This document shows positions 50,556-58,509 of a stretch of DNA of 64,000 bases, one piece after another. The notes beneath the pieces are model-generated. The model was not told the DNA's origin. It did not search any database and was given only the letters and a program-made list of their open reading frames with translations. Numbering within the stretch: the stretch's first letter is position 1; every line of letters starts with the position of its first letter. Source of the stretch: Promethearchaeati archaeon SRVP18_Atabeyarchaeia-1 (GTDB lineage: Archaea; Asgardarchaeota; Atabeyarchaeia; Atabeyarchaeales; Atabeyarchaeaceae); the NCBI GenBank assembly GCA_037308085.1, contig CP147779.1, positions 2,080,001-2,144,000 on the forward strand, read 5' to 3'. The translations under genes and the position numbers were made by a program.

Positions 50556-53234
50556 GTGAAAAAGGAACTGGCAGGACTGGTTATTGCCGGTGTTTTCGTA
50601 GTAGCCTTCTTGGCGCCGATACCAAGTCTCTATAGCCCTTCGTCACTTCTGGGCTTGTCCAATCCAATGACTGGTGTCTGGGGGAGCATAGACACAGCCA
50701 GATACCCAGAGCACGATACGATAATGATTCCAGGGATGCAGCAAAACGCAACTGTCCTAATCGACAATTACGGAGTTCCGCACATATTCACACAATCGGA
50801 GAAGGACTTGGCATATGTCATGGGGTACCTGCACGCGCACGACAGGCTCTTCCAGATGGATATCCAGAGGAGATTGGTTGAAGGCAGGCTTTCTGAGGTA
50901 CTCGGCTCGATCACGTACGACATCGACGCTCTCTACAGGACTCTGGGACTCTACAGGGGCGCTGAAAAGATCATAGATGTCTTAGAGAACATTTCTCGAG
51001 GGATACCAGTCACCTATTACCCACAGATGGACGTTTCGCTTATTAGGAGCGACGCCGCGAAAGTCCTTGGCCTTGCCCAAGCGTACTGCGTGGGAGTGAA
51101 CTATGCGATCCAATGGATGGAAAGTAGAGGCGCTCTGCCGATCGAGTTCAAGCTGCTGAAGTATTCGCCAGAGCTTTGGACAGTGCAGAACATCTTTGAA
51201 ATGGATAGGCTAATGACCTGGGGCCTCACTGGCGGATTCTATGATCTTAGCTTGTACATGATCCAGCAGGGTCTCGTTGGAAGATATGGAGTGCTAAATG
51301 GAACGAAGTACCTCCTTGAGTACTTCCCGATCGATAGGAAGATTGACCACTTCATAGTCCCAGATGGCGTGAATTGCTCATACAGTGTAAGTCCGAGTGA
51401 CCCTCCAGCTGCTCTGAGTTCTGCAGCATTATCGGCCAATGTTGACTTCAAGGGTCTAAGTGAGATTATCGCTTGGGCTAGAAGCGCGGATCCGATGATG
51501 GCGCCGATAAAATCCATGATTGGATCGAATGACTGGGTCGTTGGCGGCAACCTAACCAACACTGGGAAACCAATCTTGTGCGATGATCCGCACCTGGGAT
51601 TGTCAAGCCCTCCAGTCTGGTACGAGATTCAGTACGTCACGCAGTCACCTGACATCGGTACTATCAACGCAAGAGGCGTCTCATTGCCGGGCATCGGATT
51701 CATAGTTATTGGTTCAAACCAGTACGTCGGATGGGGGTTCACCAACGTGATGGCTGACCACATTGACTTCTACGGCTACAACTGGAACGGTGCAGGCCAA
51801 TACCTGTACAAGGGCGTTTGGAGAGACGTTGAACAGGCCCCGATGCAGATTCTCGTAAAGACTGATGGCGGAGTTGTAAGTCGCACATTCCTGCTGAACT
51901 TCACCGTTCATGGACCCGTTGTTGAGCAGGGAGGGCAGAAGTTCGCGATGTGCTGGATGGGTGAGAGATACGGCTCGACAGAAGGCATCGCGATGATGAA
52001 GTACATCCACTCAAAGAATGCGCATGACTTCTTGAAGGCAACCTACTACTTCCAGATGCCTCCACAGAACCATGTCTTCGCGGACATATACGGCGACTTC
52101 GGTTGGCGTGCAGTCGGATGGTACCCGAATAGGACCCACCCTAACGGCTTGATGGCGATTAACGCGTCTAACCCCATGACGGCATTGACGAACAGGCTAC
52201 CTCTCAATGGAAGCGCCGCCGACGTAGTAGAGTGGAACGTAAGTCACTGGATTGACGCAAACCAAGCGCCTACCCTATGGGACCCGACTCAGGGCTACGT
52301 CGTTACCGCGAACAATAGACCCGTCAATAGCTCGTACCCGCTAATCTACGACATTGCCTGGGGGTTCGCAGACTATTACAGGTCATACAGAATAGACCAG
52401 CTCATTAACCAGACGGTAAAGAATAAGGGAAGCGTTTCGGTCGATGACATGAAGAAAATCCAGAACGATGTCCTTCTCGTGCCTGCATCGACTCTAGTTC
52501 CCAAGATACTTGATGCGTATTCAGGCGGTGCCAGCGGAGACATTCAAACTGCGCTCAACTACCTCAGCACTTGGAACTACACGATGCTTCCTGATCTCGT
52601 TGCTCCAACGATCTTCGCCGAGTGGCTTCCGATCTTCAAGGACATGACCTTCGCCGACGAGTTTATAGACATAAACCAGACGGTTCCTGGCTTCTTCATC
52701 ACTAGAAGCGACCTCGACAACATTGTAGACTCGCTCCCTACAAGCAGCATAGAAGCGCTCACGCTATTTGATCCCAACAACCACTGGTTCAACAATGCGC
52801 TAACACACTCGACGCAGAATTCTACATTAGTCATACGCGCCAGCTTAGACAAGACCATTCAAGTCATGAAAGGCAAATACGGGAACGACATGAGCCAATG
52901 GAAATTCTCAACCAAACACACGCTGCAGATCAAGCACCAACTGCTGAGCATGTTCGACTACCCGTACTGGAGCGCTCGAGGTTGGAGTGACTGTGTGGAC
53001 AATATAGCGAGCACTGGTGCACACGGACCGTCTTGGAGAGAGATACTAAACTACGCGAATCTCAACCAGAGCTTCTGCGTACTCCCAGGTGGCCAGTCAG
53101 GCAGCCCCTTCAGCCTGCATTACTATGACCAGCTCCATATGTGGGTCAATGGGCAATACAAGCCGATGGCCTTCCCGGCGACTCGTGATGGCGTGGCGAA
53201 CGTGGAAAGCGTACTCGACTTCGTTGCGAGGTGA
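50556..53234 (+). CDS. Penicillin acylase family (S45 Ntn-hydrolase), secreted
   Basis: DNYGVPHI, HAHDRLFQMD, GSNDW nucleophile Ser, DDPHL, TVHGP, TANN, PGGQSG; many N-glycosylation sequons. Confidence 0.92.
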   Translation: MKKELAGLVIAGVFVVAFLAPIPSLYSPSSLLGLSNPMTGVWGSIDTARYPEHDTIMIPGMQQNATVLIDNYGVPHIFTQSEKDLAYVMGYLHAHDRLFQMDIQRRLVEGRLSEVLGSITYDIDALYRTLGLYRGAEKIIDVLENISRGIPVTYYPQMDVSLIRSDAAKVLGLAQAYCVGVNYAIQWMESRGALPIEFKLLKYSPELWTVQNIFEMDRLMTWGLTGGFYDLSLYMIQQGLVGRYGVLNGTKYLLEYFPIDRKIDHFIVPDGVNCSYSVSPSDPPAALSSAALSANVDFKGLSEIIAWARSADPMMAPIKSMIGSNDWVVGGNLTNTGKPILCDDPHLGLSSPPVWYEIQYVTQSPDIGTINARGVSLPGIGFIVIGSNQYVGWGFTNVMADHIDFYGYNWNGAGQYLYKGVWRDVEQAPMQILVKTDGGVVSRTFLLNFTVHGPVVEQGGQKFAMCWMGERYGSTEGIAMMKYIHSKNAHDFLKATYYFQMPPQNHVFADIYGDFGWRAVGWYPNRTHPNGLMAINASNPMTALTNRLPLNGSAADVVEWNVSHWIDANQAPTLWDPTQGYVVTANNRPVNSSYPLIYDIAWGFADYYRSYRIDQLINQTVKNKGSVSVDDMKKIQNDVLLVPASTLVPKILDAYSGGASGDIQTALNYLSTWNYTMLPDLVAPTIFAEWLPIFKDMTFADEFIDINQTVPGFFITRSDLDNIVDSLPTSSIEALTLFDPNNHWFNNALTHSTQNSTLVIRASLDKTIQVMKGKYGNDMSQWKFSTKHTLQIKHQLLSMFDYPYWSARGWSDCVDNIASTGAHGPSWREILNYANLNQSFCVLPGGQSGSPFSLHYYDQLHMWVNGQYKPMAFPATRDGVANVESVLDFVAR

Positions 53235-53238
53235 TCAA

Positions 53239-53607
53239 GTGAAAATCGAACAGCTTAATCTCCCGCCATGCTTACTAATAACTTTCCTCGGGGCGACGCT
53301 GGTTCAGGCAACAATGATATGGCAATTGATAGTGGTTGCTGGCGTCGTCGGTGGAATGCTAGCGAAAGACTTCAAAACCGCCATTCTGTCAGGGGTTCTA
53401 GGATTCATTTCAACTTGGTTGTTGTTTCTTGGGCTCATTGATTTATCAGCGCCCGGCAGTTTTGGGTTGGCTTTCTCTTTCTTCTCAATGTTCTTCGTCA
53501 TCGGGGTCGTCCTCATAGCAATCTTTGGGGCCGCAAGTGCGTCGTTAGGCTACTTCTTGATGAGAGTAATAGGTGAAGCGAGGTCGACGAACAAGAGGAA
53601 AAGGTGA
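53239..53607 (+). CDS. Small multi-TM protein coupled to the acylase gene
   Basis: GAGGTGA SD overlapping the acylase stop, GTG 53239; 3-4 TM helices. Confidence 0.6.
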   Translation: MKIEQLNLPPCLLITFLGATLVQATMIWQLIVVAGVVGGMLAKDFKTAILSGVLGFISTWLLFLGLIDLSAPGSFGLAFSFFSMFFVIGVVLIAIFGAASASLGYFLMRVIGEARSTNKRKR

Positions 53608-53705
53608 AACACGACCTCCCTCTCTTTTGTTAATGAGGCGTTACCGAGTCGTGTTCGCATCTTCACCACGGAACCCTTACTGGCAAAGGCTGGCAGCATC
53701 CGTCA

Positions 53706-54551
53706 CTATATCGCGCTGATCCCGAGTAATATCGAAGCAGTAACAGCAATCGATATTATGGCAATGGTCTCCAGAAGAGTCACTTTCCAGTGAACCTTTG
53801 TTATCCTGGAGCGATAGCGGACCAAGAAAATGCCCACCACAGCTCCGACTATGCAAAGGGATGCAAAGAGACGGTAAGGATCCGGCAGCGTCAAATAAAC
53901 GACTATGGGCATGAAGCCAGCAACAAAGGTCGTCGTGCCGCACAGTACGGCTGCCAGAAGGTTCGAACGGCTTATCTCCTTGTGTAAGAGATCAAATAGC
54001 TCTTTGACCAACCTGAGCGACCGATCCCGCTTGTCAATGTCAGGAATTCCGTGCAGGCTATAGTTAACCAGATTTCGTAGAGTTATCATATCAGCTATGT
54101 CCTCGGTTATTCCGCCAAGCAGAAAGCTGGAAAAGTTCGTTATAGCAACAGAGGCGAGAGTCAGAAATGCAGCAAAAACAGCAACACCGGTATGTAGGTT
54201 TGCGATGAAAGCAGATAGAATAACAACCAGCCCTGTAATTGAGCCATCAGTCAGACCTGCAACGACTTCTATGATGGGTTGCTTCTTTAATAGAAGGCTT
54301 CGCCAGTCACTACCCAGCTTGGCGCCCTTTTCGGTCAGCCTACTAATTCCGTCATGGTGGCGGATTAATCCCTCATGTTCCATGGAATCAAGAGCCCTGT
54401 CGACATCCCTCGTCTCAACACACACGTGATTCGCGCAGATTCTGTCGACTCTCTGCTTCAGCTGGGTTGTCTGGATCTTCTCATCCTTGCCTATGTTAAT
54501 CAACGTTATTATCTTGATGACATCTATCAGATCACGGATCGCAATCGACAT
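53706..54551 (-). CDS. VIT1/CCC1-like membrane domain fused to an N-terminal winged helix
   Basis: VDRALDSMEHEGLI....RLTEKGAKL wHTH; EVVAGLTDGSITGL VIT1-like TM1; about 5 TM helices. Confidence 0.65.
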   Translation of the reverse strand: MSIAIRDLIDVIKIITLINIGKDEKIQTTQLKQRVDRICANHVCVETRDVDRALDSMEHEGLIRHHDGISRLTEKGAKLGSDWRSLLLKKQPIIEVVAGLTDGSITGLVVILSAFIANLHTGVAVFAAFLTLASVAITNFSSFLLGGITEDIADMITLRNLVNYSLHGIPDIDKRDRSLRLVKELFDLLHKEISRSNLLAAVLCGTTTFVAGFMPIVVYLTLPDPYRLFASLCIVGAVVGIFLVRYRSRITKVHWKVTLLETIAIISIAVTASILLGISAI

Positions 54552-54654
54552 GACAGAGCGGCACCTATTTAGCTCACACAGACAGATCGGGACTAATAAA
54601 TATTGTCAACCAGAATGTGATTTCTCGGTTTCTGAAAGCGCTCTTTCTCGAGAG

Positions 54655-55065
54655 TCATTTCTTAAAGTATTCCCTCAGCGGTTTCCAATAGAAATCCGTC
54701 CAACCCTGCTTGTAGTCATCAGCCTGCTCCGCTGGGACATTCGAATGAACCATCGAGAGTTGCGTTCCGCCCTTGACTTTCTTGAGGGTCAGCTCTAGCT
54801 TCGAAGCCGGATACCCCTCTGGCCATTCAGTAGTCATCCACTCCTGCACTATCCGCTTTCCCGTCTCCAACACCAAGTTCTTTCCAAATATGTATCCATC
54901 CCAAGCAGTGAACTCTCCTCCAACCTTGCCGCTACCGGTCGCCTTGCTACCAGTGAATGCGCTGTGCTTCTTGGGATCCACGTAAGCGTCGTAGATCTCT
55001 TCAGGTTCCGCTGGAATAATCACCTCATCACGTATTGTCGTCAACTCCAAGCCTAAACCCTCCAT
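54655..55065 (-). CDS. SRPBCC/AHSA1 (START-like) domain protein
   Basis: PEEIYDAY, GGEFTAWDG, RIVQEW, GWTDFYW. Confidence 0.88.
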   Translation of the reverse strand: MEGLGLELTTIRDEVIIPAEPEEIYDAYVDPKKHSAFTGSKATGSGKVGGEFTAWDGYIFGKNLVLETGKRIVQEWMTTEWPEGYPASKLELTLKKVKGGTQLSMVHSNVPAEQADDYKQGWTDFYWKPLREYFKK

Positions 55066-55114
55066 TCAACGGGGATATATGTCCAGTACCTTTCTTTTCT
55101 TCTCTAGACTAACT

Positions 55115-55847
55115 GGATCTGTTACCTCTGCGGTTGGTGAGTTTAAATGGGATTTTTGGCTTATTTAGTTTTATGCAGGCAGTTAAAGCGGTGCAGGTAC
55201 CATACGAGCCTACAAGTGGTGTTCTCAGCCTCCTTGAAACCTTCAGAACCATGGTTAACCACTGCATCCGCGTCGGCCTGGAGAGGAATGCAACTTCCAG
55301 GCTCAGGCTGCAGAGCGAGACGTACCACCAGCTAAGCGGCTTCGGTCTCCACACCTGGTAAAGCCTCTCAGCCATCGAGGCTGCCACCGCCATCCTGAAG
55401 AACTACCGGAAAGCGAAAAGAAGGCGGCAGAACATTCGAGTGCCGAGGGCCAAGAAACTCACGGCCAAACTGGGAAACCAAGGCTAAAAAGTCGTTGATG
55501 GCAGACTGGGAATTCCGATCAAGCCCAGAGAGTACTTCTACGTTCCCCTGCATAAGAGGGCTGCGCAGTTCCTATCGGATGCCGCGCCCAAGTTGGGCTC
55601 AGTGACCTTGACTGCCTGCACGGTTTCAGTGGTTTTCTCAAAGACCCGAAAGCAAGAACCCTGGAATGCTGCGGGATAGGCCGCCACGTAAATGCCTGCT
55701 TGAACATGCTGAAAGCCCAAGATGAAAGCCTGCGGTTCAGGCTGGATCGCTCCGCACATGTAGCCGTGATTAGTCCCCTAAGCAAGGCTATGAGCCAAAG
55801 CGGAGAAGTTAACCAAACCGGTTATCAACCGCAGAGGTAACAGAACC
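55115..55847 (+). mobile_element. Non-autonomous element with terminal inverted repeats carrying a decayed tnpB
   Basis: Perfect 19-bp IR TCTGTTACCTCTGCGGTTG (55118-55136) / CAACCGCAGAGGTAACAGA (55826-55844), extending to GG..CC termini. Confidence 0.75.
55173..55840 (+). pseudogene. tnpB: tnpB (RNA-guided nuclease) pseudogene with nonsense codons and an internal deletion
   Basis: LLETFRTMVNHCIRVG...AATAILKNYRK...LGSVTLT; stops at 55359, 55485, 55677; resumes in another frame at RuvC-III-like RHVNACLNML. Confidence 0.78.
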
Positions 55848-56062
55848 TCAAAGCCATTCGAGTTAGCCTAAGGTTTTGGTAGAGATCGCTGGAGATCTAC
55901 CTGATATTAATGGCTGGTGGGAGGCTAGTAGAGAACCAACTGAGAGGAACAGGCAGGTCTGAGGCGGGAGATTGATTGCAGGTGGTACAACAGGATCGGT
56001 ACCCTCATCGTCCCCGACCCAACTCTAAGTGGGAACATGGGAAGGAGAGATATCAATGGTTC

Positions 56063-57235
56063 TCAGAGTTCAGACTCTGGGAACTGTATTCGCTGGAAGT
56101 ACTTCTTCATGTGCTCCCTATCCAGTTCGAATTCCTTTGTCTTGATGAATTGCCTTTCAAGGTGCTCGAGTGCCAAGTGGAAGGCTTCGTCCAAGTTGTA
56201 GCTGTCGCTTGCGCTATAGAAGTTGCCGTTCTTCGCCCTGAGCTGAAGCTTGACGTGGATGAGTTGATCGCCTTTGTGGGTCTTCCCATGCGTCTTGATG
56301 TACACGAAGAGAGTCCCGGATTCGAGTAGAGGCTGGTATCTCTCTGAGAAGGTCTTGAAGTCCCTCACCAAGTACTCCCTTTGGAAGTCATCCAGCTGAA
56401 CTTCCTTTGCAGCGAATTGCACGTTGACCGTTTTTTCCGCCATTTCCCTCTGCGCGAGCGGTTCAAGAAAGTCCCGTTTCGTAACAATTCCAATCGGATA
56501 GTCATCAACTACGACAACCAGCGAGTGCACATTGTTCTTGTGCATGAGTTGCTCTGCGTCCTTCAAGGTTGCCTGGGGGGACACTGTGATTACGGGGGAA
56601 GACATTATCTCCTTTGCTGATCCGCCTAGGGTCTTAGACCGTTCAGCGCTGACACCGCTCTTCCTCGGGCGCTCCAAAGGCTTAAAGATATGCTCAATAA
56701 AGTCCGCGACACTTACCATCCCAACGAGTCTTCCTTTGTTCATCACGAGTGCATGTGAGATGTCATGATCCCTGAAGAGCGTCAAGATGGATGCGACAGA
56801 GTCATCCTCATCGACGAAATAGGGCTTCCTAGTCATTATATACTGGACGTCACTGTTGCCCCATTCGTCCATGACGGCAGAGTGAATAACCTGCTCATCA
56901 CTAACGAATCCCAAGAGCTTCTCGCCCTTGAAAACCGGAAGTTGCCTTATGTTACTCTCGATCATCATCTTCGCTGCTTTGCTTATAGGGTCTCGAGGCT
57001 CAAGAGTCGGGGCTGACCGCATGAGTACCTGAACCTTCGCCGTCGAGAGGTCAAGCCCAGACCTTCTTACCCAGCGCTCAGCCAGTACGCCCTTATACTT
57101 CCCTTCCTTGTCTAGGACGGCAAGTACTGGTGACTTTTCCTTCTCTAGAAGCTCGAGACACTTTGAAAGCATATCATTCTCATGGACGCTTGCGTAGGTC
57201 TTCGAATATATCTCTTCAACTGTCTTTGGCGCCAT
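56063..57235 (-). CDS. 4xCBS-domain protein with a C-terminal HPF/RaiA-like domain (ribosome hibernation factor candidate)
   Basis: Four CBS repeats; C-terminal IHVKLQL...FYSASDSYNLDEAFHLALEHLERQFIK. Confidence 0.78.
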   Translation of the reverse strand: MAPKTVEEIYSKTYASVHENDMLSKCLELLEKEKSPVLAVLDKEGKYKGVLAERWVRRSGLDLSTAKVQVLMRSAPTLEPRDPISKAAKMMIESNIRQLPVFKGEKLLGFVSDEQVIHSAVMDEWGNSDVQYIMTRKPYFVDEDDSVASILTLFRDHDISHALVMNKGRLVGMVSVADFIEHIFKPLERPRKSGVSAERSKTLGGSAKEIMSSPVITVSPQATLKDAEQLMHKNNVHSLVVVVDDYPIGIVTKRDFLEPLAQREMAEKTVNVQFAAKEVQLDDFQREYLVRDFKTFSERYQPLLESGTLFVYIKTHGKTHKGDQLIHVKLQLRAKNGNFYSASDSYNLDEAFHLALEHLERQFIKTKEFELDREHMKKYFQRIQFPESEL

Positions 57236-57372
57236 TGTTCCATCTCCTTTCCTCCTCCATACTCACGATCTGATTTAAGGATTTTCATCAAGCCGTATGC
57301 ACATGACAGTACGGGCAGAAAGTCTTTATCCCAAACGAACTATTCAATACTTGGCTTGAGGAGGCACCGCAG

Positions 57373-58509
57373 ATGAGCTCCCAGATCGCTGAGTCAATCG
57401 TCAATACGCTGAGAGCAGCTAACATAAGCTTCTTCGCCATGTTTCCATGCGAAAAAGTGAGGCGCCTATATGACCTAGTAGGAAAGCAGTTCAGGCATGT
57501 TGCGGTCTCCAGAGAGGAGGAAGGGGTTGGGATGTGTGCTGGCGCGTATCTCGCTGGCGCGAAACCAGCCATGCTTGTCCAGAGTTCTGGCATAGGCAAC
57601 ATGATTAATGCCCTCTGCTCCCTGACGATGGTCTACAAGTTGCCCCTCTTGATCCTGGTCAGCTGGAGAGGAGTCTACAAGGAGAGAATACCAGCCCAGA
57701 TTCCGCTGGGAAGAAGCCTCCCAAAGCTTCTAGAGGCGTTGGGCATCAAGTACACTGCTGTAAGAAGGAAGGGGGACATCGCCCCGATATCAAAGTCTGT
57801 TGCCGAAACCTATTCGAGAAGCAGGATCCATGCGCTCCTACTCAGCCCCTCAATATGGGAAGAGGAGGCCAGCGCCTCTCAGAGCGTAGCCGACACAGAG
57901 ACTCATCCAGACTTTAAGCGTTCAAAGCCCGATGGAAATGATACTACTTATGGTGCGCTTACCCGATTCGAGGTGCTCAAGACTATCGCACCTTACCTCG
58001 AGAACAAAGTAGTAGTCTGCAACCTCGGCATCCCAAGCAAGGAACTCTACTCGATAAAACATCAGAAATCCAATTTCTACATGCTTGGAAGCATGGGACT
58101 AGCATCATCAATAGGACTCGGAATCTCGTTGTTCACATCAAAACAGGTTGTCGTCATCGAGGGAGATGGAAGCCTACTAATGAACTTGGGTGCGCTCTCG
58201 ACAATAGCGACTGCTCGGCCGCCGAATCTAACAATTCTCGCGATAGATAACGGCGTACATGGATCGACCGGGAACCAGCCAACCGCTACAAGCCTTTGCG
58301 TCGATCTGGAAGTCGCTGCCAAGGGGCTTGGCATAGAGAAGACTTCAAAGGCTGCAAGTCGGGAGCAAATACTCTCGGCAATTCAGAGCCTAGATGAAGG
58401 ACCAAACTTTGTGCATATACTTGCCAGACCCGGGAACTCCAATGTAAGTGATATCCCGCTCTCTCCCCTCGATATAAAGAAGAACATAATGGAATCGTTG
58501 AGGAGATAG
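57373..58509 (+). CDS. comDE: Fused ThDP-dependent sulfopyruvate decarboxylase alpha+beta (or phosphonopyruvate decarboxylase-like)
   Basis: SREEEGVGMCAGAYLAG, QSSGIGN, SWRG, NLGIPSKEL, FYMLGSMG, EGDGSLLMN, DNGVHGSTGNQPT. Confidence 0.82.
   Translation: MSSQIAESIVNTLRAANISFFAMFPCEKVRRLYDLVGKQFRHVAVSREEEGVGMCAGAYLAGAKPAMLVQSSGIGNMINALCSLTMVYKLPLLILVSWRGVYKERIPAQIPLGRSLPKLLEALGIKYTAVRRKGDIAPISKSVAETYSRSRIHALLLSPSIWEEEASASQSVADTETHPDFKRSKPDGNDTTYGALTRFEVLKTIAPYLENKVVVCNLGIPSKELYSIKHQKSNFYMLGSMGLASSIGLGISLFTSKQVVVIEGDGSLLMNLGALSTIATARPPNLTILAIDNGVHGSTGNQPTATSLCVDLEVAAKGLGIEKTSKAASREQILSAIQSLDEGPNFVHILARPGNSNVSDIPLSPLDIKKNIMESLRR

What the first reader, a model, noticed from the sequence alone, without database searches (positions are those of the whole stretch)
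55115..55847. tnpB bounded by IS6-like terminal inverted repeats
Seen: a perfect 19-bp inverted repeat (26 bp with 3 mismatches) flanks a tnpB remnant; the right end reads GGTTCTGTT on the reverse strand and the tnpB stop codon lies inside it. Established: IS200/605 and IS607 tnpB elements lack TIRs, whereas IS6-family ends begin GGTTCTGTT or GGCACTGTT. Inference: this TnpB was mobilised by a DDE (IS6-like) transposase, with the TIR forming the 3' end of the omegaRNA and the flank after 55847 as guide. No 8-bp target duplication is visible (gactaact vs tcaaagcc).
Basis: partly seen in the sequence, partly recalled or inferred. Interest (0 to 1): 0.72.

Follow-up and report, generated by a model that had tools for sequence, protein, structure and literature searches.

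The report
Broken TnpB element with IS6-like ends
This is a decayed, internally deleted copy of a small archaeal jumping element that carries only the RNA-guided nuclease gene tnpB and its guide-RNA scaffold between IS6-type inverted ends. An IS6-like transposase encoded elsewhere in the genome most likely moves the family.

Summary
A 22-nt inverted repeat with one mismatch (19 nt perfect) lies at 55115-55136 and 55826-55847 around a tnpB remnant, with no target duplication.

The window copy (733 bp) is a mosaic relic of a ~1.29-kb solo-tnpB element. It has a 559-bp internal deletion and two in-frame stops. The element is present in at least 10 copies in this Asgard (Atabeyarchaeia) genome, alongside a second subfamily of about 40% amino-acid identity.

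- All full copies end at the same GGTTCTGTT... repeats, and most have 8-bp target duplications.
- The genome's only two IS240/IS6-type DDE transposases sit in two cargo transposons with the same two repeat variants and 8-bp duplications.
- The right repeat forms the last stem of a covariation-supported guide-RNA scaffold.
- An asymmetric TTR motif precedes the left duplication. It looks like a TAM and fits TnpB homing into empty sites.
- The same layout occurs in Bathyarchaeia and Thaumarchaeota.

TnpB on DDE transposons with inverted ends was published in 2023, but I did not find an IS6-like partner, the dual-use repeat or this TAM-duplication geometry in the papers I read.

This scan had already reported the family from eight other stretches of the same genome. 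I class it as a new variant of a known kind.

The parts
55115..55136 (+). Left terminal inverted repeat (TIR-A type, GGATCTGTTACCTCTGCGGTTG)
   Evidence: The same 22-mer bounds all family copies and the IS6-like transposon TnA.
55142..55148 (+). TATA-like box (TTTAAAT) about 28 nt upstream of the tnpB ATG; a possible archaeal promoter for a leaderless transcript. This is an inference.
   Evidence: Read directly. Not tested.
55173..55646 (+). 5' part of the tnpB remnant (equivalent to about aa 1-158), with in-frame TAA stops at 55359-55361 and 55485-55487. It is 95.3% identical to the copy at genome 2173232-2174523.
55642..55646 (+). Junction of a 559-bp internal deletion at an AGACC microhomology. 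The deletion removes the RuvC-I and RuvC-II region and shifts the frame.
   Evidence: Alignment to four full-length copies.
55647..55840 (+). 3' part of the tnpB remnant (equivalent to about aa 343-409 plus the stop TAA at 55838-55840). It is 97.5% identical to the copy at genome 950177-951465, so the element is a mosaic.
55719..55847 (+). omegaRNA-like scaffold, structurally intact. It has a hairpin with a GGUUC loop, a long-range stem, and a terminal stem that uses the right repeat.
   Evidence: Covariation on alignment A2. Model R1 hit at genome 2135719-2135847: 118.7 bits, E 9.5e-31. This copy was in the training alignment.
55826..55847 (-). Right terminal inverted repeat. It reads GGTTCTGTTACCTCTGCGGTTG on the minus strand. 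It encodes the last residues QPQR plus the stop of TnpB and forms the 3' stem of the scaffold.
55848..55867 (+). Flank that would serve as the guide if the scaffold is transcribed through the right end. This is an inference; no TAM-bearing target for it is known.
   Evidence: Position only; by analogy with the TnpB systems described in the papers read.

Best explanation
The window holds a dead, mosaic copy of a non-autonomous transposon family. Each full element (about 1.29 kb) has three parts:
- 22-24-bp IS6-type terminal inverted repeats;
- a single gene for a catalytically complete TnpB;
- an omegaRNA scaffold embedded in the last ~130 nt of that gene.

Step 1, inferred from sequence signatures: an IS240/IS6-like DDE transposase supplied in trans by cargo transposons TnA or TnB binds the shared repeats. 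It inserts the element with an 8-bp target duplication.

Step 2, structure shown and expression inferred: transcription through the right end yields an omegaRNA whose last stem is the right repeat itself. Its guide is the duplicated 8 bp plus the downstream flank.

Step 3, inferred from an insertion-site signature: TnpB with this RNA recognises TTR followed by that guide. This combination exists only at an unoccupied allele. At the occupied locus the guide-matching DNA is preceded by ...AACC, and the TTR is followed by the left end. Cleavage and recombinational repair from an occupied copy would copy the element in. This enriches surviving insertions that landed 8 bp downstream of a TTR in the right orientation.

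The window copy has lost the nuclease core and has no target duplication. It lies where gene order differs from two relatives, so it is probably a product of recombination or deletion between copies. It keeps both repeats and an intact scaffold.
For: Family and ends:
- The window copy matches at least 10 full copies over both halves.
- All copies end at the same repeat.
- In the own genome, 8-bp duplications score 8/8 or 7/8 at 8 of 9 sf1 and 3 of 3 full sf2 copies.
- In a pooled set of 48 independent insertions from Asgard, Bathyarchaeia and Thaumarchaeota genomes, selected for a duplication match of at least 6/8, 44 score 7/8 or 8/8.

TnpB:
- Matches Pfam PF07282 (7.7e-14) and NCBIfam guided_TnpB (2.3e-25).
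- The RuvC-I Asp and RuvC-II Glu are invariant across seven aligned family proteins, and the zinc-finger cysteines are largely conserved. The RuvC-III Asp is present in six of the seven (Asn in the copy at genome 655232).

Transposase:
- Only two PF13610 genes exist in the genome.
- TnA (genome 614149-618567) has perfect TIR-A ends and the duplication tgaaaaaa/tgaaaaac.
- TnB (549276-555829) has TIR-B-like ends and the duplication tggagaac at 8/8.
- IS6-like genes in Nitrosopumilus and Atabeyarchaeia-2 also lie next to GGTTCTGT ends.
- The published IS6/IS26 consensus is GGTTCTGTTGCAAA with an 8-bp duplication.

RNA:
- 20 pairs are 88.1% paired, against 30-42% when slid. The covariation score is 0.546 against at most 0.131, and 0 of 500 shuffles reach it.
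- The terminal helix includes repeat positions 7-14.
- Model R1 finds 8 miniature elements that were not in the training set, at 87-108 bits.

TAM-like motif:
- TTG or TTA sits at -3..-1 before the left duplication in 31 of 48 insertions. The mirrored right side has 6 of 48 (Fisher p = 2e-7), and the flank background is 5.1%.
- The last base tracks the TnpB subfamily, not the repeat type. sf1 has A 8, G 0; the others have A 7, G 26 (p = 7e-5). TIR-A elements with sf2-like TnpB have TTG.
- Four of four omegaRNA-only miniatures with duplications have TTG or TTA on the scaffold-defined left side.

Window copy:
- 559-bp deletion at an AGACC microhomology, and mosaic identity of 95.3% and 97.5% to different copies.
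- Relatives have 3.3-8 kb of other genes between the two flanking genes.
Against: - No transposition, RNA or cleavage was observed; everything is inferred from sequence.
- The transposase is never found inside a tnpB element: 0 of the roughly 110 fetched loci scanned hold both genes.
- TnA and TnB could themselves be passengers of another enzyme.
- Harmer and Hall argue that archaeal IS6-like elements may not belong to IS6/IS26, so their mechanism is unknown. If it is purely replicative, the benefit of homing is less obvious.
- The NCBIfam IS6 score is 116 bits, below the curated cut-off of 125.
- The window copy lacks a duplication, has CTA rather than TTR on its left, and cannot make TnpB.
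- No reciprocal partner for its flanks was found in the genome.
- One Asgard genome has the scaffold but no close transposase homologue, and two have the transposase without the scaffold.
- Insertions are independent events, but the elements are related, so the p-values are indicative only.
Confidence: 0.82

Rival explanations
1. The elements are ordinary IS200/IS605 (IS1341-group) tnpB elements moved by a Y1 TnpA. The terminal repeats are incidental.
For: The genome has three Y1 transposase genes. A T-rich motif 5' of the left end recalls IS605 target sites (review).
Against: IS200/IS605 elements have no terminal inverted repeats and make no duplications. Here, variable 8-bp duplications separate the TTR from the left end at dozens of independent sites. 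The left and right ends co-vary as inverted repeats across lineages, and the same ends bound IS6-like transposons.
Confidence: 0.03
2. A DDE transposase other than the IS6-like one moves these elements, for example an IS630-like or IS5-like enzyme. TnA and TnB are merely further passengers.
For: The IS6-like gene lies mid-element in TnA and TnB, with no closer ends of its own. IS630-type DDE_3 genes are nested in some Nitrosopumilus copies. Published DDE partners of TnpB are ISL2, IS630 and IS1031.
Against: Of the repeat-bounded elements delimited in the own genome (tnpB elements, miniatures, TnA, TnB), only TnA and TnB carry a transposase gene; about ten solo repeat-like sites were not examined. 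The 8-bp duplication and the GGTTCTGTT tip fit IS6/IS26 and not IS630, which duplicates TA. The DDE_3 genes add about 1.1 kb to otherwise 1291-bp elements, or interrupt tnpB, so they look like secondary insertions.
Confidence: 0.08
3. The TTR motif is the target preference of the transposase, not a TAM. TnpB plays no part in which insertions persist.
For: TnA, which has no TnpB or scaffold, also sits after TTA. AT-rich intergenic targets are common.
Against: The motif is one-sided, although the ends are symmetric. Its last base follows the TnpB subfamily rather than the repeat type. It follows scaffold orientation in miniatures. TnB and most non-scaffold ends in Nitrosopumilus lack it. T-rich 5' motifs are reported as the TAMs of characterised TnpB elements; TTTR as a Cas12f PAM is from my own knowledge.
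Confidence: 0.15
4. The window copy is still a working part of the system: a guide-RNA donor and a mobilisable miniature element that uses TnpB and transposase from other copies.
For: Both repeats are intact. The scaffold scores as high as those of intact copies. ωRNA-only miniatures of the family exist in 8 copies.
Against: It has no duplication and no TTR on its left flank, so its guide would have no TAM-bearing empty site. It is a single copy of this deleted form.
Confidence: 0.2

Closest known systems
DDE-transposase-associated TnpB branches (DDE-1 to DDE-6) and solo TnpBs with matching ends, Altae-Tran et al. 2023, PNAS (PMC10691335)
   Same: TnpB sits inside elements with inverted terminal repeats. 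The 3' end of tnpB lies close to the transposon end. Solo TnpBs share ends with transposase-bearing elements, which implies mobilisation in trans.
   Different: The partners named in the text and in a 2026 review are IS630, ISL2 and IS1031; IS6 is not named. Here the transposase is never adjacent to tnpB, so the link shows only through repeat identity. The 8-bp duplication, the TTR-N8 geometry and the repeat-as-RNA-stem were not described in what I could read. The supplement was not available, so I cannot exclude that one of the six branches is this clade.
IS6/IS26 family insertion sequences, including the archaeal IS6-like group (Harmer and Hall 2019, PMC6807381)
   Same: Ends start GG with G at position 7. 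The bacterial consensus GGTTCTGTTGCAAA shares its first 9 nt with these ends. Both make 8-bp duplications and use a DDE_Tnp_IS240-type transposase. Archaeal repeats are at least 18 bp.
   Different: Canonical members are 0.7-0.9 kb with one transposase gene. Here the transposase sits in 4.4- and 6.6-kb cargo transposons, and the abundant elements carry tnpB and a scaffold instead. The transposase scores just below the NCBIfam IS6 cut-off.
IS200/IS605 IS1341-group solo tnpB elements (for example the ISDra2 TnpB-omegaRNA system)
   Same: The only gene is TnpB, with a RuvC D-E-D triad and a zinc finger. The scaffold overlaps the 3' end of the gene and ends at the right end. The guide comes from the flank, and there is a T-rich 5' motif.
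   Different: IS200/IS605 elements have no inverted repeats or duplications, and they insert directly 3' of the TAM. Here the TAM-like motif is offset by the 8-bp duplication, and the ends are DDE-type.
Eukaryotic Fanzor nucleases in DDE transposons (Bao and Jurka 2013, PMC3627910)
   Same: TnpB homologues are carried as passengers in transposons with inverted repeats and target duplications that are moved by DDE transposases.
   Different: Those are eukaryotic or viral, usually sit in cis with the transposase, and belong to other superfamilies. The proteins are longer.

Membership tests
IS200/IS605 (IS1341 group) | No terminal inverted repeats | tested here: not met
   22-24-nt inverted repeats are present at every copy.
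IS200/IS605 (IS1341 group) | No target-site duplication; insertion directly 3' of a 4-5-nt target | tested here: not met
   8-bp duplications in family copies. TTR is separated from the left end by 8 bp. The window copy itself has none.
IS200/IS605 (IS1341 group) | Encodes TnpB | tested here: met
   PF07282 and guided_TnpB hits. The window copy is a remnant.
IS200/IS605 (IS1341 group) | Mobilised by Y1 TnpA | tested here: inconclusive
   No tnpA in the element. Three Y1 genes lie elsewhere in the genome. The end structure argues against their use.
IS6/IS26-like elements (as non-autonomous derivative) | Ends begin GG, with G at position 7 and the GGTTCTGTT consensus | tested here: met
   GGTTCTGTTACC... 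on the right and GGATCTGTTACC... on the left, against the consensus.
IS6/IS26-like elements (as non-autonomous derivative) | 8-bp target-site duplication | tested here: met
   Met for the family. Not met for the window copy (gactaact against tcaaagcc).
IS6/IS26-like elements (as non-autonomous derivative) | DDE_Tnp_IS240 transposase encoded within the element | tested here: not met
   There is no transposase in tnpB elements. It is present only in TnA and TnB, which have the same ends.
IS6/IS26-like elements (as non-autonomous derivative) | Replicative cointegrate (copy-in) transposition | not testable with these tools
   Needs a transposition assay.
OMEGA TnpB-omegaRNA system | RuvC D-E-D triad and zinc finger | tested here: met
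   RuvC-I Asp and RuvC-II Glu are invariant in seven family proteins; the RuvC-III Asp is present in six of seven; the zinc-finger cysteines are largely conserved. In the window copy this region is deleted.
OMEGA TnpB-omegaRNA system | Structured RNA scaffold overlapping the 3' end of tnpB and ending at the right end | tested here: met
   Covariation. Model R1 hits including 8 untrained miniatures. No Rfam family matched the region.
OMEGA TnpB-omegaRNA system | TAM 5' of the guide-matching target | tested here: inconclusive
   Insertion-site statistics point to TTR, but no cleavage assay was done. The window copy has CTA.
OMEGA TnpB-omegaRNA system | RNA-guided DNA cleavage, with the guide transcribed from the flank | not testable with these tools
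   Needs RNA-seq and biochemical assays.
DDE-associated TnpB (Altae-Tran 2023) | Inverted terminal repeats around TnpB, with the gene's 3' end near the transposon end | tested here: met
   The stop codon lies 7 nt from the right end.
DDE-associated TnpB (Altae-Tran 2023) | DDE transposase gene in the same locus as TnpB | tested here: not met
   None of the roughly 110 fetched loci scanned holds both an IS6-like and a TnpB match.

The most novel reading that the evidence does not exclude
A widespread archaeal clade of TnpB-omegaRNA modules has become an obligate hitch-hiker of IS6-like DDE transposons. It occurs in Asgard, Bathyarchaeia and Thaumarchaeota.
- One 22-nt sequence serves both as the transposase-binding terminal repeat (DNA) and as the guide-proximal stem of the omegaRNA.
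- TnpB homing at TTR-N8 sites decides which DDE insertions persist.
- Gene-neighbourhood surveys would miss the partnership, because the transposase is always in trans.
Probability: 0.55. Interest if true: 0.72.

Novelty: new variant of a known kind. Interest (0 to 1): 0.58.

Why it matters
TnpB is the ancestor of Cas12. Its accepted role, restoring elements lost by scarless excision, was worked out for IS200/IS605 and IS607. Here the same module rides elements with inverted repeats and target duplications, and the transposase is supplied in trans.

- If the TTR-N8 geometry reflects homing, RNA-guided maintenance also benefits DDE transposons in prokaryotes. A 2026 review treats this as an open question.
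- The family gives a natural case of one sequence constrained both as a protein-binding DNA end and as an RNA stem.
- It offers compact TnpBs of about 390-410 aa with a short predicted TAM for testing.
- It shows that partners linked only by shared ends are missed by neighbourhood-based surveys.

The window copy adds only an example of decay and recombination.

Tried and rejected
- Rfam scan of 53000-58000 at E up to 1: no match.
- Search for closer repeats around the two IS6-like genes: none, so their ends are the distant ones.
- Search for a reciprocal partner that would explain the window copy's missing duplication, as seen for two Nitrosopumilus copies with swapped flanks: none found in this genome.
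- Empty-site search in JGI metagenome contigs for the copy at genome 1251822, and a left-end pattern search for more sf1 insertions: both gave 0 hits.
- Supplementary tables of Altae-Tran 2023, to place this clade in their DDE branches: not held.
- Source names for the transposase and TnpB: none on record.
- An autonomous element with both the IS6-like gene and tnpB: none among the fetched loci.
- The IS630-type DDE_3 gene next to TnpB in one Nitrosopumilus element was considered as the true partner. I rejected it as a nested insertion, because it adds about 1.1 kb to an otherwise 1291-bp element with an 8-bp duplication.
- Solved structures: only distant Cas12f and TnpB matches over the RuvC/zinc-finger region.

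Full report
**Observation**

The region 55115-55847 is bounded by a 22-nt inverted repeat with one mismatch: GGATCTGTTACCTCTGCGGTTG on the left and GGTTCTGTTACCTCTGCGGTTG on the reverse strand at the right. Nineteen nucleotides are perfect, and the repeat extends to 26 nt with three mismatches. The TAA that ends the tnpB frame (55838-55840) lies inside the right arm. The flanks gactaact and tcaaagcc are not a duplication. The 22-mer with up to 3 mismatches occurs 31 times in the 2.81-Mb genome, and a reversed control pattern occurs 0 times.

**What the window copy is**

A search of the whole genome with 55100-55860 finds at least 10 places that match its first ~530 nt and, about 560 nt further on, its last ~205 nt. 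The window copy is therefore an internally deleted member of a ~1.29-kb family.

- Alignment to four full copies places a 559-bp deletion at an AGACC microhomology (55642-55646). It removes the RuvC-I and RuvC-II region and shifts the frame.
- Two Tyr codons upstream have become TAA, at 55359 and 55485.
- The 5' part is 95.3% identical to the copy at genome 2173232 but only 83% to the copy at 950177. The 3' part is 97.5% identical to the 950177 copy and 86% to the 2173232 copy. The element is a mosaic.
- In two related genomes, the genes that flank it here (a SRPBCC-like gene and a CBS-domain gene) are separated by 3.3 kb and about 8 kb of other genes.
- No reciprocal partner for its flanks exists in the genome.

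Together with the missing duplication, this suggests the copy arose by recombination or deletion between elements. That is an inference.

**The family**

Full copies encode one protein of about 409 aa that matches Cas12f1-like_TNB (PF07282) and NCBIfam guided_TnpB. In an alignment of seven family proteins the RuvC-I Asp and RuvC-II Glu are invariant and the zinc-finger cysteines are largely conserved. The RuvC-III Asp is present in six of the seven; the copy at genome 655232 has Asn.

A second subfamily (sf2) is about 40% identical in protein and is present in three full copies and one truncated copy. Its ends are of a related type, GGTTCTGTTAACTCTTCGGGTG.

Most sf1 and all full sf2 copies are flanked by 8-bp direct repeats that differ from site to site (8/8 or 7/8 matches). 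This is the signature of staggered cleavage by a DDE transposase. It is not a feature of IS200/IS605 or IS607, which have neither inverted repeats nor duplications.

**The transposase**

Only two genes in the genome match DDE_Tnp_IS240. Their best NCBIfam hit is the IS6 family model, at 116 bits against a cut-off of 125. Neither has nearby ends of its own.

- One lies in a 4,419-bp element, TnA (genome 614149-618567). Its two ends are perfect copies of the sf1 repeat over about 24 nt, and its duplication is tgaaaaaa/tgaaaaac.
- The other lies in a 6,554-bp element, TnB (549276-555829). Its ends differ from the sf2 repeat by one and four positions, and its duplication is tggagaac at 8/8.
- Both carry cargo genes.

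There are thus two cognate pairs of transposon and tnpB subfamily. The published IS6/IS26 end consensus is GGTTCTGTTGCAAA with an 8-bp duplication, and archaeal IS6-like elements have longer repeats. IS6-like genes in Nitrosopumilus and in the sister Atabeyarchaeia genome also lie next to GGTTCTGT... ends.

Among 151 sampled Asgard genomes, the scaffold model hits 4 and close transposase homologues hit 5, with 3 in common. Those three are kin. No fetched locus has both genes together, so the link is visible only through the ends.

**Spread beyond this genome**

The sister genome is Candidatus Atabeyarchaeum deiterrae (Atabeyarchaeia-2), so the window comes from an Asgard archaeon of that family. 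Relatives of the TnpB in Bathyarchaeia, Thaumarchaeota (Nitrosopumilus, Nitrosotalea, soil lineages) and another Asgard genome show the same layout. Lineage-specific variants of GG(T/C)(T/A)CTG... sit at both ends, with 8-bp duplications. The left end follows the right end as the repeat diverges. This argues that the symmetry itself is under selection.

**The RNA**

The last 135 nt of 34 elements were aligned. A structure of three elements is supported:

- a hairpin with a conserved GGUUC loop;
- a long-range stem;
- a terminal stem that pairs an upstream AGUUAAC-like strand with positions 7-14 of the right repeat.

The support is 88.1% of cells paired against 30-42% when partners are slid, a covariation score of 0.546 against at most 0.131, and 0 of 500 shuffles reaching the observed value. 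Sixteen of 20 pairs change on both sides.

A covariance model built from this alignment finds the right end of every tnpB copy. It also finds eight ~260-380-bp miniature elements that were not used to build it, at 87-108 bits. The window copy scores 118.7 bits; it was part of the training alignment.

The right repeat therefore has three roles at once: the DNA end, the codons for the last residues of TnpB, and the guide-proximal stem of the scaffold. Whether the RNA is made was not tested, and Rfam has no matching family.

**A TAM-like footprint**

In 48 independent insertions selected for a duplication match of at least 6/8, the three bases just 5' of the left duplication are TTG (21) or TTA (10). 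Position -3 is T in 39, -2 is T in 43, and -1 is G or A in 41.

- The mirrored position on the right side has TTG or TTA in 6 of 48 (Fisher p = 2e-7).
- The flank background is 5.1%.
- The last base follows the TnpB subfamily: A in 8 of 10 sf1 and none G, against G in 26 and A in 7 of 38 others (p = 7e-5).
- It does not follow the repeat type. Elements with sf1-type repeats but sf2-like TnpB have TTG.
- Miniatures that keep only the scaffold show TTG or TTA on the scaffold-defined left side in four of four cases with duplications.
- TnB and most scaffold-free ends in Nitrosopumilus lack the motif. TnA has TTA.

A symmetric transposase should not produce a one-sided motif that tracks the passenger. 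The simplest reading is that TTR is the TAM and the guide is the duplicated 8 bp plus the right flank. Only an empty allele then presents TAM plus target, and insertions that landed in this register are the ones retained by homing. This is inferred, not shown.

**Comparison with what is known**

Altae-Tran et al. 2023 reported six TnpB branches associated with DDE transposases. All had inverted terminal repeats, and some solo TnpBs shared ends with transposase-bearing elements. A 2026 review names the partners as ISL2, IS630 and IS1031. It discusses why DDE partners are rare in prokaryotes. Fanzors ride DDE transposons in eukaryotes.

I found no paper that links TnpB to IS6-like elements. The study of mobile elements in these very genomes does not mention TnpB, IS6, inverted repeats or target duplications. 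The supplement of the 2023 paper was not available, so this clade may already sit unnamed in one of its branches.

The finding is best called a new variant of a known kind.

**Earlier notes of this scan**

After reaching the reading above, I found that eight other stretches of the same genome had already been reported with the same interpretation. They agree with my results but are not independent support. This report adds:
- the anatomy of the decayed mosaic copy;
- the cross-phylum insertion-site statistics;
- the subfamily-specific last base of the motif;
- the finding that the transposase is never adjacent to tnpB.

**Verdict**

The window copy itself is a relic, and the interest lies in the family.

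Noticed in passing
own genome 614149-618567 (locus L057 501-4919): Transposon TnA carries cargo besides the IS6-like transposase: a 272-aa protein with no family hit, next to a STAS-like DUF4325 protein; a retropepsin-like aspartyl protease; a DUF5678 protein; and an HxlR/PadR-like winged-helix regulator. Their function is unknown.
   Followed up: partly
own genome 537816-537951, 673143-673403, 763237-763617, 868840-869096, 1260433-1260701, 1526452-1526708, 2198749-2199010, 2205592-2205851: Eight miniature elements of 257-381 bp keep the inverted ends and a high-scoring omegaRNA-like scaffold but have no tnpB. Four have 8-bp duplications preceded by TTG or TTA.
   Followed up: yes
loci L145 and L178 (Nitrosopumilus sp. 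OZ245003.1, 1325308-1326598 and 1451399-1452689): Two inverted copies of the tnpB element have exchanged their 8-bp flanks (tagaaact and ttatgtta). This indicates an inversion of about 126 kb by recombination between copies. A similar exchange is seen for two 141-bp miniatures (L179, L190).
   Followed up: partly
loci L181, L173, L177 and L182 (Nitrosopumilus sp. OZ245003.1): IS630-type DDE_3 transposase genes are nested inside or beside tnpB elements and IS6-like remnants. They could be mistaken for the TnpB partner in neighbourhood analyses.
   Followed up: partly
own genome 478195-478557, 1573364-1573714, 1955413-1955769: Three IS200/IS605-type Y1 transposase genes are present in the same genome. 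I did not examine whether they have their own TnpB partners.
   Followed up: no
own genome 619105-619482 and at least 8 other sites (for example 640565, 784312, 1464884, 1910804): An unrelated ~380-bp repeat family lies just outside TnA and recurs at 76-88% identity. It was not characterised.
   Followed up: no
window 54655-57235: The SRPBCC-like and CBS-domain genes that flank the remnant are adjacent here. In two related genomes they are separated by 3.3 kb and about 8 kb of other genes. In one of these the intervening genes include the MgtA-type ATPase that lies downstream in this window. Local gene order is rearranged around the element.
   Followed up: partly
own genome 655232-656523: This sf1 copy has repeats of the miniature-element type (GGTTCTGTCAAGTC...) rather than TIR-A. 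It also has Asn in place of the RuvC-III Asp, so repeat types are exchanged between tnpB lineages.
   Followed up: no
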